NCBI GenBank assembly: GCA_030265395.1
Contig: JARFYF010000029.1
Coordinates: 24,013,494 to 24,077,493, forward strand
Direction: 5' to 3'
DNA: 64,000 nucleotides
DNA from: Rhina ancylostomus
Lineage: Eukaryota
The position numbers were made by a program. The stretch's first letter is position 1, and each line of letters opens with the position of its first letter. Of the stretch, positions 12,001 to 18,000 are shown in pieces.

Positions 12001-15000
12001 CCTCTCTGGGGAGTGGAGGGTGTTCAGTTATTAATGACCGCTGAGCAGGCAGCGCGATGTCAATGTGACAACTGATAGTGTGAAGCATGCACCACTAAGG
12101 ACTCTGGAATCGAGAGGAAATATAAAGGAGCTTAGCAGTATTTTCATTCACTGGAATGTCAGTCTCGGTTAGACAGCAGATTGCAAACAACGCAAACAGA
12201 TGCTTATTGTTAGAACACAGCTCAAATATTGCTGCACATCAGAGAGCAGAATACACGCTTATGGAAACCAATAGTATTTAAAACAAACCCTCGATCACAA
12301 GCTCAGAGGAAACCAAGCAAACTGAGATAGATGTATTAGGATATTAAGGTAAGCTGAATTATTTTTTAAACTTTGATGCTTCATGCTGAATTCTGCTTTG
12401 CACCTTATTTCTCATATTCTTATGGCTAAAACATGTGTACAAGTGAATGCGTGCTACATTAATTACACTCTGGTCTTCTGAATCCCTCTCCCAACCAGAA
12501 GTATAATGACAATTTGAGATGTGTAAAGTTCTGATACTTTATTTGCAATGATATGAAAGGAAAATTCCTCTCTGTCAAATAAGAAAATGTAACACTGAAG
12601 TTAAAATTAAGAAAAGACAGTCAGTACAAGTACTGTACTAAAGATAACTGGGGCTTTCATATAGCTAAAACACTGCAGTGCAAAGAAAGCTGTAGCATGT
12701 ATACCCAAGCTAACTGTCTTATTTTTACCAGAAATCAACATGGGGCAGGCAGCATTTTTTTTAAATGATGGACTAGGGTTAAAGCCTCTGATCTTGTCCT
12801 TGGTATCAACAGAACCCATCATAGAACTGAAGCAAATTAGCCTATTACAAAAGCTTCTTGACATTTTGTTTCACTACATTAGCAGGTTGATAGTTAATGA
12901 TCATCTTTAAAACCAAAAATAGGGCAGTTTCAAAATCTGATTACAAACACATTTTGCAGAAGGGTATGATAAGTGTGAATAACACTGCATACACCAAATA
13001 CTTACGACTTCCACTGATAATGAAAAAGATCAAAATAGGGAAGATTTTAAATAGGCTTTCATAGCAGGTGTGATTTTTCTTGTGTGTATTTTGTCAGGGT
13101 ATCCAGAAATCATATTGTGATGCATTGCGATGTACCAACAGAAATGTTTTTGTTTTCCAACAGATAAATATTGGTAATAAAGCAACACAAAGACGCAAGT
13201 AGCAAGAAACTGGAGTAGGCCATTCAGCCCCTCATTCCTGCTCTACCTCAGTGTCACTTTCCTACACTAGCCTCATGTCTCTTCATTCCCTTAACATCCA
13301 AAAGTGTCCATAATATGCTGCTATTGGCTTGTTCTCCACAACTGAATAATTAAAGACAGAGCATTGTTTGAGTGAGTCTATAATGACAATAAGGACATTG
13401 CCTTTCTGCAGTTAGTTCTAATAAACATTCCACTGAATTAGCCTTTCTCCTAAATTTGTAGCCCCTTAATGCTGTAGGGCAATCTTATTGGCAGGGAAAT
13501 TAATATAAAGTCCAAAGCAACATTTCATACATCAATGTAGTGGCCAGGGAGGAGGCGAAGCAATGTTAGTTGTCTCTTTAACTTTAATGAACCACAGCCA
13601 CTTCCATTTTCCATCAGGTTGTCAACAAGGCTTCACTTTCATTCAAACCATTTTTGTTTAAGGTTTTAAATGCATATCGAATGCAATCAAGCAGGACAAC
13701 ACCGATGCTTCTGTAATTGTTATCATTGAGTGTACATATGTGAACAGTAGTGGGTGGTATACACATGGCAATAAGTTATTGCCTTCCCCCATTATGCTGT
13801 AGCAACCGTAAGACAACAGCTCCTATGCTGACAGCTGAGAAATGATTATGTATAAATTCTTCAATGGGAAACTGCTTTCCAACTAGATGCTAGCTATGGT
13901 CTTCCAAAATGTCACAATTGGATGGGAGAAACCTCACAGAAAGGTTAAATCAGGGGCTTCAGGGGGTGATCAGTTCATTGCGGTTTAAGCAGCGTTGGCA
14001 AGCACATCTCTGGTGCAGTCTTGCTGGTGTGAGTTAGGTGTGTTGGCTACTCCCTGGGCCCTGGCAAGGATGGTGGATCTCCAACCCGCCATAGTCATCG
14101 ACAACGGATCAGGTCTGATCAAATCTGGCATCTCAGGGGATAAAGAACCTCGCTCGATCTTCAACAACATGATCGGCAAGCCTCGGCAGAAAGCACTCAT
14201 CATCGGAGCCGGCCAGAAGGACTTCTACATTGGCGAAGAAGCCCAAGTCAAGAGAGGAGTGCTGTCCATCAAATACCCGGTGGAACACGGCATCGTCACC
14301 TCCTGGGATGACATGGACAAGATCTGGAGGTACGTGTACGACAATGATTTGAAAATCAAGTCAAACGAGAGGCCGGCTCTGCTGACCGAGGCTCCCCTGA
14401 ACCCACTTGCCAACAGGGAGAGGATGTGCCAGATCCTCTTCGAGGCTTTCGACGTCCCGGCCATGTACGTGGCCATCCAAGCGGTGTTGGCTCTCTATGC
14501 CTCCGGCAGGACCACAGGGTGTGTGATGGACAGTGGAGACGGGGTGACCCACACGGTGCCCATCTACGAGGGTTACTGCTTGCCCCACGCCGTGCTGAGG
14601 CTGGAGCTGGGAGGTAAGGACCTCACCGAATATCTGGTGAGGATCCTGACCGAGAGTGGGGTCTCCTTCGTCAGCACAGCGGAGAGGGAAATAGTGAGGG
14701 ACATCAAGGAGAGGCTGTGCTACGTGGCTCTGGACCCGCAGGCAGAAATGTGCAAGAAACCTTGCGAGGTGGAGAGAGACTACAAGCTGCCTGATGGCCA
14801 GATCATCAAGATCCACAACCAGAGGTTCCGCTGCCCGGAGACCCTCTTCATCCCGGCCAACATTGGCATCGAAGCTCCGGGCATTGATAAACTCTGCTTC
14901 AACACCATCATGAAGTGTGACATCGACCTGAGGAGGGATCTCTACGCCAACGTGATCCTGGCCGGAGGTTCCAGCTTGTTCCCGGGGATGGACGAGAGGA

Positions 15001-18000
15001 TGCTGAAGGAGATGACCAAAATGGTCCCCACCGGCACCCCGGTCAAGGTGTGCGCTCCGCCCGAGAGGAAATACTCGGTGTGGATGGGAGGCTCCATCCT
15101 TTCCTCCCTGTCGGCTTTCCAGCAGATGTGGATCACGGCCTGCGAGTACAAGGAAGTTGGGGCTAACATCGTGCACAGAAAGTGTTTCTAAAATCTTGTT
15201 TTAAAAAAGACAACTGTATTTTAAAAAGACAATAAACGTACTGACAAAATAAAAGTGCCAGATTGACGTGAGAAACTGACGGCTTTATAATTTTTGCATA
15301 TTTCTCAGTCATTTTAGTATACAACAATTAAAATAATGTTTAAAAGAAACCTACTTGTTTTAATTAGCTCTCTCTGCATTTCAGAAAAGGCCTTGTAGAA
15401 GATGTTCTTCTCTCCAGAGATGCTGTCTGACCTGTTGAGTGTTTCCAGCATTTTATACTTCCATTTTAAAGAATCGTAATTGTGCTCAAGACCTCTCTGA
15501 ATCACACCTATCAGAGAATTTTTGTATTTCTCCCTGTGCATTTGAGCACACGGCTGGCAGAGCCAAGCAGTCAATGGTATAACATTTACAGCACAAGACA
15601 GCTGCATAGAATTATGTAACAGAAGCTCTTCAGCCCATTGTGTCTGTATCAGCTCTTTGGTGCATTTTTTTCAATTTATCCTTTTCCCCTGGTTTTTCCT
15701 TTATAAAGTATATCCATATTTTGGGGGGAAACTCCTTCCATTGCTCTCTCAGCATATTCCAGGTCACAGCAACTTGCCAAGAAAATTTCTAACCTAAGAT
15801 TTTTCTTTTGTCCAAATAGTTTAACTTGTCCATTCTCATAACCAGCCCTATTGCCAGTAATTTTATCATTATACCTACTCTGTCCAAAATGATGTTTGCA
15901 CCTCCAGAAGCGTAGAAGGAGTTCAATATATAAATAGCATAAGGGTAGAATGTTTTATCTTAACCCAATCAATGACATACCAACAACTGTATATATTTGA
16001 AATATTGTAGCTTTAACAAAATGGAATAACCTGCCCCCCCCACCTCAGGCATTCTGCTGAAATAGTTGTTATGAATTTTTTCCATAATCAATTATTCTTA
16101 ATCATATTATTATCTTAGGCCATAAATGAAGACCATTTTTATCTCTTGTACTGGTCTGAGTGAAATTCATAGTGCTGGTTTTTCTCTACCTCCCTTTATG
16201 GCATGACTGAGCCATGATTTTTCAGCAACACCAATGAAGTCATCTCTATATTAAAATAAAATCTGAAACTAGTTTTGCTTTGAATGGTTAACCTAGACAA
16301 GGGGAGTATGTGTCTAAGAAGTAGTAAGTTGGGGGTTATATATTTACATAACAGTGATTGTAGGGGAGTAGTGTTCTTACTGTGAAATTTGTATACTATT
16401 TATTTATGTACCTTATTTTAATAAATCAGCTCTTGGTCTGAAAACTGTGCCTGTTTTCATAGAATGCTTTACAGCCCACTCTTCATAAAGGGAGAAGTTT
16501 TGTTGTGGAACATGTGATATTTCAGTAGTTTATTTATGGAAGAATGGTTCTCAGGTACAATCCCTGGATCATGTTATTGATTAGATAAATACTCCAGATT
16601 ATAAGCACTAGGGTGTCCACTTACAGGAATGAGAATTTCTGAAAATCTGAAAATGCAACAGCCTGGTTGATTTATTGCAAAAGCACAGGCATGGTTAAAA
16701 ACAGAAAGGCTTAGTCCATTACAGTCACAGACTGACTGTGCTTTATGGAGTTGTTGTTACTACTGTTGTGGTCACTCCAACTTTTGACATGCTTGTGTGA
16801 GAAGACCAATTAAAATATGTTCTGGACAATTGTAGGAAGTGTGTGTTGCATTTTCTGATTTCAGCCCTTTATTGGGAAAAGGATTTGATTAAATACATTT
16901 TCTGACCACAAGTAGAAACTGCGGGGTTTTAAATGCTCACGAGCAGCCAGTGAAGCTATAGGGATTTTCTGGTGCTTTTCACAATCTCAAGATGCCATGA
17001 ACCAGTATTCAATCAATGAACTACTTTTAAATTGTACTTCCTGGGACAACGTATGTGGTCACATCGACATTCCGTGAACAATGATGTGGTATGATCCGAT
17101 AATCAGTGAAGGGATAATTAATTGACCAGGAAAAAGGAGTGAAGCCAAATGTAGGTCCTCAGAAGTGGGGGGAAGTTATAATTGGGAACTAAGACATGGC
17201 AGAATGATAAAACAAATACTTTGTATGTCTTCACACAGAAGGACACAAATAGTCTCCCTGATATGTCAAGGTCTAAAGAGAGGGAGGATCAGAAGGAAAT
17301 CAGTTATGTTAGTAAAGAAACACTGCCAAGGCAATTAATGGAACTAAACACTAATCTGATAATCTATATCACAGAGTTATAAAGTCACAGAGTCACATAG
17401 CAATTTACAGACTAATAATCATAACACTAGAAATGGGGAAGATGTGAGAATCTCTTCTAAAGTATGCAATGACAGAACACTTGGAATGACATTAATAGGA
17501 TTAGACAACATCAAAATCAGTTTATGAAAGGAAAATCATGCTTAACAAACCCACTGGAGTTTTTATCAGAGATGTGACTAGTAAAATAGATAAGGGAGAA
17601 CCAGTGGATGTGGTATATTTGGACTTTCAGAAGGCTTTTGATAAGGCGCAAAATGAAAGCACGTGGGATTGAGAGTAATATGCAGGCATGGATTGAGAAT
17701 TGATTGACAGACAGGAAAAACAGGGTAGGAATAAATTGGTTCCTTTCTCGGTGACGGACAGTGACAAGTGGGGTGTCACATGGATCAGTGCATGGATCCC
17801 AAATGTTCACCATATATACCATTGACTTGGAGGGTGGAGCAGCAAACAATCTGCTGGAGGAACTCAGCGGGTCGAGCAGCATCTCTGGGGGGAGAGGAAC
17901 TGCCAATGTTTTGGGTCGAAACCCTGCATTAGGTTTCTTGGATGATGGAATTGAATGTAATATTTCTAAGTTTGTCAATGACATAAAACTGAGTGGAATT

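What the first reader, a model, noticed from the sequence alone, without database searches (positions are those of the whole stretch)
14070..15191. Intact intronless ACTRT3/Arp-T-like gene at the LRRN3 locus of a probable elasmobranch
Seen: a complete 373-aa single-exon actin-fold ORF with a Kozak ATG and AATAAA signals, about 40 kb upstream of the LRRN3 CDS on the same strand. Known: mammalian ACTRT3/ARPM1 is a spermatid actin-related protein located near MYNN/TERC, not near LRRN3, and LRRN3 is nested in IMMP2L. Inference: this is a separate Arp-T paralogue or old retrogene, possibly a second gene nested in the same IMMP2L intron. It may bear on the origin of testis actin-related proteins before the cartilaginous/bony fish split.
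Basis: partly seen in the sequence, partly recalled or inferred. Interest (0 to 1): 0.7.

Follow-up and report, generated by a model that had tools for sequence, protein, structure and literature searches.

The report
Ray copy of sperm actin-like gene
This is an intact, single-exon gene for a divergent actin that belongs to an old jawed-vertebrate family labelled ACTRT3 in reptiles and amphibians; the gene itself is ordinary, but its position beside LRRN3 is not seen in the other species that could be compared.

Summary
Window 14070-15191 (+) is an intact 373-codon ORF with a full-length actin domain, a good Kozak context and two AATAAA signals, 40,140 bp upstream of an LRRN3 ORF on the same strand.

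It is not a conventional actin (62-65% identity; split off at 100/100 support). It sits in a well-supported clade A (99.5/100) with ray, shark, sturgeon, coelacanth, amphibian and reptile genes. All 12 tree rows that NCBI names "actin-related protein T3" fall in this clade. Sister clade B (99.9/100) holds the "ACTRT2(-like)" genes. Both clades contain cartilaginous and bony vertebrates, so the duplication predates that split.

The ORF is therefore the elasmobranch member of an already annotated family, not a separate new paralogue. It keeps 107 of 107 clade-invariant residues and the full ATP-binding set.

The LRRN3 neighbourhood is not conserved. In 9 of 9 species with data, two rays included, the two genes lie on contigs of different length. 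In the window, 10 N runs separate them, so the adjacency is either lineage-specific or a scaffolding artefact.

Not tested: grouping with mammalian ACTRT3 (never retrieved), expression, dN/dS and IMMP2L nesting.

The parts
14070..15191 (+). Complete single-exon coding sequence (373 codons plus TAA) of a divergent actin of the ACTRT3-named clade A
   Evidence: ORF list. Pfam Actin, full length. 572 bits and about 65% identity to alpha-actin over residues 5-373, with one 2-residue gap. Trees. AlphaFold2 model at pLDDT 91.9 matching actin at TM 0.95. GC3 0.783 and CpG o/e 0.65.
14064..14073 (+). Start codon context caaggATGg (A at -3, G at +4)
   Evidence: Read directly from the sequence. There is no in-frame ATG in the 27 open codons upstream.
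15231..15253 (+). Two AATAAA polyadenylation signals (15231-15236 and 15248-15253)
   Evidence: Motif scan. No A run of 8 or more follows within 300 nt.
13851..13856 (+). TATAAA 219 nt upstream of the ATG; a candidate core promoter only
   Evidence: Motif scan. This is weak: several ATGs lie between it and the start codon, no CRE site was found, and the flank has CpG o/e 0.23.
14330..14422 (+). Latent 93-nt in-frame intron inside the exon (donor gag|gtacgt, acceptor ag|g); it corresponds to the segment missing from Hemitrygon isoform X3
   Evidence: Isoform alignment together with the sequence.
15413..15466 (+). Copy of an interspersed repeat just 3' of the gene (other copies at 26564, 26806 and 31021)
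   Evidence: the repeat finder family D1, 61-80% identity. It contains the 11-nt match that might otherwise look like a target-site duplication.
55332..57461 (+). Neighbouring LRRN3 coding sequence (709 codons plus stop); context only, not part of the gene
   Evidence: 89% identity to Hypanus sabinus LRRN3. The tree places it as the batoid orthologue.

Best explanation
The ORF is the ray orthologue, or co-orthologue, of an ancient jawed-vertebrate gene for a divergent actin. NCBI names this lineage ACTRT3 in tetrapods. It is one of two sister lineages (ACTRT3-like and ACTRT2-like) that arose from an actin gene before cartilaginous and bony vertebrates split.

Shown: the protein has the actin fold and a complete ATP-binding and hydrolysis residue set, and it is under the same constraint as its relatives.

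Inferred: like mouse ARPM1/ACTRT3, it is made in spermatids. There it would act as a structural, profilin-binding subunit of the cytoskeletal layer that ties the acrosome to the nucleus, not as a myosin-driven filament former. The reasoning is that it keeps the barbed-end cleft and the profilin-contact residues, but has lost the acidic N-terminus, D25 and E99 (myosin contacts), M47 of the D-loop, K113, and F266 of the hydrophobic plug.
For: Identity:
- Pfam Actin matches over the full length.
- Clade A has 99.5/100 support, the elasmobranch subclade 99.2/100, and conventional actins split off at 100/100 (69 rows x 377 columns). The quick mixture-model tree agrees.
- 12 of 12 tree rows named ACTRT3 fall in clade A.
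- The 3 rows named ACTRT2-like fall in clade B. A Gopherus protein named ACTRT2 is 77% identical to a clade B row.

Constraint: the ORF keeps 107 of 107 columns that are invariant in the other 26 clade A proteins, and 60 of 61 columns that are 90-99% conserved. It has only 3 private residues.

Fold: pLDDT 91.9 and pTM 0.88. All 50 listed Foldseek hits are actin chains; the best is 6nas_A at TM 0.95.

Residues:
- Kept: D11, S14, G15, L16, K18, H73, Q137, D154, G156, D157, G158, V159, H161, K213, E214, G302 and K336.
- Clade-wide conservative changes: T303S and Y306F.
- Cleft and profilin residues kept: Y143, G146, T148, Y169, H173, D286, D288, E361, E364, R372, K373, C374 and F375.
- Changed: D25K, E99N, M47A, K113L (L in 26 of 26 clade A rows) and F266N.

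Function by analogy:
- Mouse ARPM1/ACTRT3 is a perinuclear-theca protein that binds PFN3, ACTL7A and ACTRT1/2, and the knockout is subfertile (bioRxiv 10.1101/2025.03.27.645694, passages).
- ACTRT2 and ACTRT3 are essential for fertilization (PMC13752377, abstract and passages).
- Proteins identified as ACTRT3 and PFN3 occur in sturgeon sperm samples (PMC11291920, passages).
- Mouse Actrt2 is a single-exon gene specific to spermatogenic cells (PMC3428356, passages).
Against: - No mammalian ACTRT3 sequence could be retrieved. Conventional actins outrank it in every search, so orthology to the characterised mammalian protein rests on NCBI names for non-mammals plus residue numbering in a paper.
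- Mouse Arpm1 has two exons; this coding sequence has one.
- There are no expression data for this species.
- The genomic position differs from all 9 species that could be compared, so this copy may be a duplicate and not the strict orthologue.
- The gene tree inside elasmobranchs is unresolved (window+Narcine 8.7/50).
- With all catalytic residues intact and 65% identity to actin, filament formation cannot be excluded.
Confidence: 0.65

Rival explanations
1. The window copy is a lineage-specific relocated or duplicated copy of the clade A gene, moved by RNA or by DNA into the LRRN3 region. The ancestral locus would lie elsewhere.
For: The clade A gene and LRRN3 lie on contigs of different length in 9 of 9 species. 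These include Hypanus and Narcine, which bracket the window species in the LRRN3 tree. The ORF is a compositional island: GC3 is 0.783 against 0.354 for LRRN3, and flank GC is 0.36-0.43. The coding sequence is intronless.
Against: No poly(A) tract was found. The only flanking direct repeat (11 nt at 13600 and 15457) is expected by chance, and its 3' copy lies inside an interspersed repeat. High GC3 may simply be a family trait kept by selection. The contig-length proxy works per 90% cluster and cannot see unannotated extra copies.
Confidence: 0.35
2. The adjacency to LRRN3 is an assembly artefact. The 8.8-kb contig that carries the gene (9852-18680) would have been scaffolded into the wrong place.
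For: There are 15 N runs in 64 kb, and 10 of them lie between the two genes: five of exactly 100 N, three of 10 N, and runs of 418, 118 and 143 N. The two genes are unlinked in both rays that could be compared.
Against: No positive sign of a misjoin was found. The operators state that some N runs may be deliberate masks and not gaps. Flank GC is similar on both sides.
Confidence: 0.3
3. It is a conventional cytoskeletal or muscle actin isoform.
For: The best PDB sequence matches are alpha- and beta-actins at 572 bits. All catalytic residues are present.
Against: Identity is only 62-65%. It lacks the acidic N-terminus. A 2-residue deletion is shared with clades A and B only. It is separated from 8 conventional actins at 100/100.
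Confidence: 0.03
4. It is a dead processed pseudogene that has not yet decayed.
For: It is intronless and sits in an AT-rich, gene-poor stretch. No promoter was demonstrated.
Against: The 373-codon frame is intact. It keeps 107 of 107 clade-invariant residues and has only 3 private changes. Its terminal branch is 0.037, no longer than those of its relatives. The Kozak context and poly(A) signals are intact.
Confidence: 0.03

Closest known systems
Mammalian ACTRT3 / ARPM1 (perinuclear-theca actin-related protein that binds profilin-3)
   Same: The non-mammalian genes NCBI names ACTRT3 are this ORF's closest named relatives at 68-75% identity, and they share its clade. Length is similar: 373 aa here, and 372 aa recalled for human. 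The human variant sites W85, R115 and E361 (PMC13752377) correspond to W86, R116 and E362 here. The R-to-E spacing is 246 residues in both, against 248 in conventional actin.
   Different: This was not compared with any mammalian sequence. The mouse gene has two exons. The neighbour here is LRRN3. The ray protein keeps every catalytic residue. Whether the mammalian one does was not tested; from memory it does not.
ACTRT1 / ACTRT2 (Arp-T1/T2) lineage, here clade B
   Same: It is the sister clade; A+B is separated from conventional actins at 100/100. It shares the 2-residue deletion, T303S and Y306F. Mouse Actrt2 is also single-exon and specific to spermatogenic cells (PMC3428356).
   Different: The ORF falls outside clade B (99.9/100). 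Clade B proteins are mostly 377 aa. In the tree, 13 of the 14 rows of its fast-evolving subclades B2 and B3 have replaced H161. Identity to the ORF is 47-68%.
Conventional actin (alpha, beta, gamma)
   Same: Same fold (TM 0.95), same nucleotide-binding residues, H73, and the C-terminal HRKCF.
   Different: Identity is 62-65%. There is no acidic N-terminus. D25K, E99N, M47A, K113L and F266N are changed. It has a 2-residue deletion after residue 229 and an intronless coding sequence.
Drosophila testis-enriched non-canonical Arps (e.g. Arp53D)
   Same: They are divergent actin paralogues recruited to male germline structures (PMC7038667 and PMC8291977; abstracts seen in the search listing).
   Different: They arose independently and are not related as a family. 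They evolve fast, whereas this elasmobranch protein evolves slowly (92-93% identity between ray and shark).

Membership tests
Actin family (Pfam PF00022) | Full-length match above the curated cut-off | tested here: met
   419.5 bits against a cut-off of 27; residues 5-373 match profile positions 4-410 of 410.
Actin family (Pfam PF00022) | Actin fold with four subdomains | tested here: met
   AlphaFold2 model at pLDDT 91.9. Foldseek TM 0.95 and rmsd 1.8 to 6nas_A; all 50 listed hits are actin chains. A first model from a shallow alignment failed at pLDDT 39.
Actin family (Pfam PF00022) | Nucleotide-binding and catalytic residues (P1 loop, P2 loop, Q137, H161, K213/E214, adenine pocket) | tested here: met
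   16 of 18 are identical to actin. T303S and Y306F are conservative and found across the clade.
Conventional actin isoforms | Groups with conventional actins; acidic N-terminus | tested here: not met
   Split from 8 conventional actins at 100/100. The N-terminus is MVDLQPA. Identity is 62-65%.
ACTRT3 / ARPM1 orthologous group | Groups with proteins named ACTRT3 (non-mammalian tetrapods) | tested here: met
   12 of 12 tree rows so named fall in clade A with the ORF (99.5/100).
ACTRT3 / ARPM1 orthologous group | Groups with mammalian ACTRT3 to the exclusion of ACTRT1 and ACTRT2 | not tested
   No mammalian ACTRT3 appeared in the best 120 or best 150 rows. No ACTRT structure exists in the PDB.
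ACTRT3 / ARPM1 orthologous group | Conserved neighbourhood (human: near TERC/MYNN) | not testable with these tools
   No vertebrate genome collection was available. The window shows LRRN3 as the neighbour. The other 127 ORFs of 68 aa or more gave no Pfam match above cut-off.
ACTRT3 / ARPM1 orthologous group | Spermatid-specific expression and profilin-3 binding | not testable with these tools
   No RNA-seq was available. Profilin-contact residues of actin are conserved, but binding was not modelled because no profilin from this species was at hand.
ACTRT1/2 (Arp-T1/T2) group | Groups with proteins named ACTRT2(-like) | tested here: not met
   Those rows lie in clade B (99.9/100); the ORF lies in clade A.
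Recent processed retrocopy | Intronless, with a poly(A) remnant and target-site duplication | tested here: inconclusive
   The coding sequence is intronless. There is no A run of 8 or more. The only flanking repeat is 11 nt, about what chance predicts, and it lies inside a repeat element. An ancient retroposition would leave no marks.

The most novel reading that the evidence does not exclude
The testis 'actin-related proteins' of mammals may be degenerate descendants of a pair of sperm-specific true actins (the ACTRT3-like and ACTRT2-like lineages). That pair already existed in the jawed-vertebrate ancestor. Elasmobranchs would preserve the near-ancestral state: slowly evolving and catalytically complete. 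In this ray lineage the ACTRT3-like gene has in addition been transposed or copied into the LRRN3 gene desert, carrying its GC-rich body into AT-rich DNA.
Probability: 0.3. Interest if true: 0.5.

Novelty: new member of a known kind. Interest (0 to 1): 0.3.

Why it matters
The papers I could find treat ACTRT1-3 as mammalian sperm-head proteins. 91 papers hold 'ACTRT3', and none of the 40 listed deals with its evolution outside mammals.

The trees here show that both lineages are jawed-vertebrate-wide. The elasmobranch ACTRT3-like protein is slow-evolving and keeps every ATPase residue. That makes it a useful protein for asking what the ancestral sperm actin did: whether it binds ATP, polymerises or binds profilin.

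For genome annotation the practical point is a caution. The position 'at the LRRN3 locus' is not conserved and depends on a gapped scaffold.

Tried and rejected
- Retrieving mammalian ACTRT3. The single-protein search, the clade A profile against 50% representatives and a clade B profile all listed conventional and fused actins first. None of the 112 full-domain representatives fell in clade A. The candidates P0323, P0312 and P0367 lack the clade's 2-residue deletion.
- ESM Atlas look-up. It returned only generic actin clusters at score 0.98.
- PDB search with a clade B protein. No ACTRT structure exists.
- First AlphaFold2 run on 27 close relatives. It gave pLDDT 39 and was discarded.
- treekit 'careful' mixture-model search. 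It was unfinished after 744 s on one CPU. I used its quick tree and a separate complete IQ-TREE run under LG+F+G4.
- Target-site duplication and poly(A) search. Nothing convincing was found.
- Pfam scan of the 127 other ORFs of 68 aa or more. It gave only 3 sub-threshold chance-level matches (DAN, CI-B14_5a, Ac76) and no peptidase S26/S24 match, so there is no sign of an IMMP2L exon. Shorter exons were not scanned.
- Rfam gave 0 matches, and TRF gave one 37-nt repeat at 37670.
- Complex prediction was not used, because no partner sequence from this species was available.
- My idea that teleosts lack the gene was dropped. Channel catfish has an annotated actrt3 (PMC9770954).
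Full report
**1. What is in the sequence**

Window 14070-15191 (+) is an open frame of 373 codons. It starts at an ATG in the context caaggATGg and ends in TAA. The stop-to-stop frame is 400 codons. Two AATAAA signals follow at 15231 and 15248, and no A-rich tract follows them.

The ORF stands out from its surroundings in base composition:

| Region | GC | GC3 | CpG o/e |
|---|---|---|---|
| Actin-like ORF | 0.563 | 0.783 | 0.65 |
| Flanks | 0.36-0.43 | n/a | 0.17-0.31 |
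| LRRN3 ORF | 0.378 | 0.354 | 0.35 |

The 2-kb composition profile shows the same local peak.

An LRRN3 coding sequence (55332-57461, +) lies 40,140 bp downstream.

**2. What the protein is**

Pfam Actin matches end to end at 419.5 bits. The best solved-structure relatives by sequence are alpha- and beta-actins. The top hit is 6nas_A at 572 bits, residues 5-373 against 5-375, with about 65% identity and a single 2-residue gap after residue 229.

An AlphaFold2 model from 84 named relatives has pLDDT 91.9 and pTM 0.88. Confidence is low only in the D-loop block (residues 41-50) and at the C-terminal tip. All 50 listed Foldseek matches are actin chains, with TM about 0.95. A first model from 27 close relatives was useless at pLDDT 39.

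**3. Relatives**

In a search of 5.8 billion proteins, the closest full-length hits were:

| Identity to the ORF | Protein and species |
|---|---|
| 92% | Hemitrygon akajei "actin-1-like" |
| 91% | Hypanus sabinus "uncharacterized LOC132377533" |
| 84% | Narcine bancroftii |
| 83% whole-query; 92-93% over the aligned parts | Stegostoma tigrinum isoforms |
| 76% | a sturgeon protein |
| 68-75% | reptile and amphibian "actin-related protein T3" |
| 68-71% | three coelacanth copies |

Of the 120 rows listed, 17 carry the ACTRT3 name. The window's own protein was not in the collection.

A complete IQ-TREE run (LG+F+G4, 69 named rows x 377 columns, SH-aLRT/UFBoot) gave these supports:

| Split | Support |
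|---|---|
| Conventional actins versus the rest | 100/100 |
| Clade A (28 rows, window ORF included) | 99.5/100 |
| Elasmobranchs within clade A | 99.2/100 |
| Bony vertebrates within clade A | 94.5/98 |
| Clade B (33 rows) | 99.9/100 |
| Mobula + Callorhinchus within clade B | 97.8/99 |
| Bony vertebrates within clade B | 95.3/98 |

The quick mixture-model trees agree. All 12 tree rows named ACTRT3 are in clade A.

Clade B holds the frog "ACTRT2-like" proteins and a turtle protein that is 77% identical to a Gopherus "ACTRT2" isoform. It also holds the 377-aa "actin-like" genes of birds, squamates, a marsupial and the platypus.

So the A/B duplication predates the split between cartilaginous and bony vertebrates, and the ORF is the elasmobranch member of the ACTRT3-named lineage. 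Within elasmobranchs the gene tree is unresolved (window+Narcine 8.7/50).

**4. What could not be shown about the name**

No mammalian ACTRT3 was ever listed, because conventional actins and tandem-fused actins outrank it. This held, in the profile search of 1.84 billion representatives (35,838 hits at E <= 0.001, best 150 shown) and. None of the 112 full-domain representatives fell in clade A.

Orthology to the characterised mammalian protein therefore rests on two things:
- NCBI's naming of non-mammalian genes.
- A weak numbering argument. The human variant sites W85, R115 and E361 (PMC13752377, passages) match W86, R116 and E362 here. The spacing is 246 residues, the same as in clade A and 2 shorter than in actin. 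Clade B shares that deletion too.

**5. Constraint**

The ORF keeps 107 of 107 columns that are invariant in the other 26 clade A proteins, and 60 of 61 columns that are 90-99% conserved. It has 3 private residues. Its terminal branch is 0.037.

dN/dS could not be computed because no orthologous DNA was available. However, a protein that is 92-93% identical between a ray and a shark is not evolving neutrally.

**6. How it probably works**

Shown: all phosphate-loop, catalytic and adenine-pocket residues of actin are present. These are D11, S14, G15, L16, K18, Q137, D154, G156, D157, G158, V159, H161, K213, E214, G302 and K336, with T303S and Y306F across the clade. H73 and the C-terminal C374/F375 are also present.

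The barbed-end cleft and the residues that contact profilin in actin are kept as well: Y143, G146, T148, Y169, H173, D286, D288, E361, E364, R372 and K373.

Changed are:
- the acidic N-terminus (now MVDLQPA);
- D25K and E99N, at sites that contact myosin in actin;
- M44I and M47A in the D-loop;
- K113L (L in 26 of 26 clade A rows);
- F266N in the hydrophobic plug;
- T351A.

The roles assigned to these residues come from established actin structural knowledge, not from a call.

Inferred: this is a nucleotide-binding actin-like subunit whose filament side contacts and myosin surface are altered. It would work as a structural, profilin-associated component of the spermatid head cytoskeleton, as described for mouse ARPM1/ACTRT3. 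That protein sits in the perinuclear theca, binds PFN3, ACTL7A and ACTRT1/2, and its knockout is subfertile (bioRxiv 10.1101/2025.03.27.645694, passages). ACTRT2 and ACTRT3 are essential for fertilization (PMC13752377).

Outside tetrapods, proteins identified as ACTRT3 and PFN3 were reported in sturgeon sperm samples (PMC11291920, passages). The supplements that would name the accession were not available.

Elasmobranch clade A proteins carry the full catalytic set. Several other lineages have changes:
- salamanders: D157A;
- coelacanth: D154E, and H73N in two of its three copies;
- 4 of the 6 frogs: K336M, and a fifth has K336V;
- 13 of the 14 rows of clade B subclades B2 and B3 have H161 replaced by L, V or Q.

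**7. The locus**

The LRRN3 tree follows the species tree. It puts the window inside the batoids (SH-aLRT 99), beside Hypanus+Mobula (81), with Narcine and Rhinoraja outside. The window's LRRN3 is therefore the ordinary orthologue.

As a proxy for chromosome I used the contig lengths reported with each protein. The clade A gene and LRRN3 lie on different contigs in 9 of 9 species with both values:

| Species | Clade A gene contig (bp) | LRRN3 contig (bp) |
|---|---|---|
| Hypanus | 212,297,639 | 174,543,276 |
| Narcine | 125,398,495 | 107,671,741 |
| Latimeria | 149,881,728 | 160,164,119 |
| Caretta | 103,967,438 | 355,489,124 |
| Emys | 107,854,333 | 373,885,020 |
| Tiliqua | 242,160,784 | 80,219,437 |
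| Eublepharis | 145,573,841 | 108,627,703 |
| Rhinatrema | 83,996,221 | 268,302,114 |
| Microcaecilia | 772,932,187 | 221,182,781 |

This proxy has limits. The values are given per 90% cluster, so a multi-member cluster could mix species, and unannotated extra copies are invisible.

Even so, the two rays bracket the window species, so the 40-kb adjacency is not the ancestral state. It is either a lineage-specific move or duplication, or a scaffolding error. The window has 15 N runs. The gene sits on an 8.8-kb piece (9852-18680), and 10 N runs separate it from the LRRN3 piece (48377-58025). The operators state that N runs may be gaps or deliberate masks; they were not filled.

I found no marks of recent retroposition. 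An interspersed repeat copy lies just 3' of the gene. Nesting in IMMP2L was not tested beyond a Pfam scan of the 127 other ORFs of 68 aa or more, which found nothing above cut-off.

**8. Comparison with what is in print, and verdict**

91 papers in the library hold 'ACTRT3'. Of the 40 listed, none treats its evolution outside mammals. Two catfish papers and the sturgeon proteome merely list the gene. A search that combined ACTRT3 with shark, elasmobranch, coelacanth, Xenopus or lizard listed no paper holding ACTRT3 among its 15 rows.

The gene is a new member of a known, already annotated family. The deep age of the ACTRT2/ACTRT3 split, and the actin-like completeness of the elasmobranch form, are modestly interesting. 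The LRRN3 position is the only unusual feature, and it is the least secure.

Noticed in passing
window 14330-14422: The exon contains a strong splice-donor-like site (gag|gtacgt) and an in-frame AG 93 nt downstream. These match the segment missing from the annotated Hemitrygon isoform X3. Stegostoma isoform X4 lacks a similar stretch, and other isoforms lack residues of about 203-266. This hints at conserved intra-exonic splicing.
   Followed up: partly
window 14070-15191 versus 55332-57461: GC3 is 0.783 and CpG o/e 0.65 in the actin-like ORF, against 0.354 and 0.35 in LRRN3 and about 0.2 CpG o/e in the flanks. The gene body is a CpG-rich island in AT-rich DNA, like the CpG-rich single-exon spermatogenic genes described in mouse (PMC3428356).
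   Followed up: partly
window 15413-15466, 26564-26617, 26806-26859, 31021-31074: A short interspersed repeat family has four copies at 61-80% identity. One copy lies immediately 3' of the actin-like gene.
   Followed up: no
whole window: There are 15 N runs: seven of exactly 100 N, four of 10 N, and runs of 433, 418, 118 and 143 N. Apart from the two ORFs there is no Rfam match and no Pfam match above cut-off.
   Followed up: yes
related proteins: Several local expansions appear. Three clade A copies sit on one coelacanth contig. Two clade B genes carry consecutive locus tags in Ascaphus (FKM82_013655 and FKM82_013656). Two clade B genes share one contig in each of Pelodytes and Bombina. Clade A and clade B genes lie on different contigs in Tiliqua, Pelodytes and Discoglossus.
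   Followed up: no
related proteins: Catalytic H161 is replaced by L, V or Q in 13 of the 14 rows of the fast-evolving clade B subclades, which hold the rows NCBI names ACTRT2-like. It is kept in 25 of 26 aligned clade A proteins, including all elasmobranch rows that were aligned.
   Followed up: partly
window 7737-8369 (-): A 211-codon open frame rich in Ser, Pro and Leu has no Pfam match. It is probably non-coding or repeat-derived.
   Followed up: no
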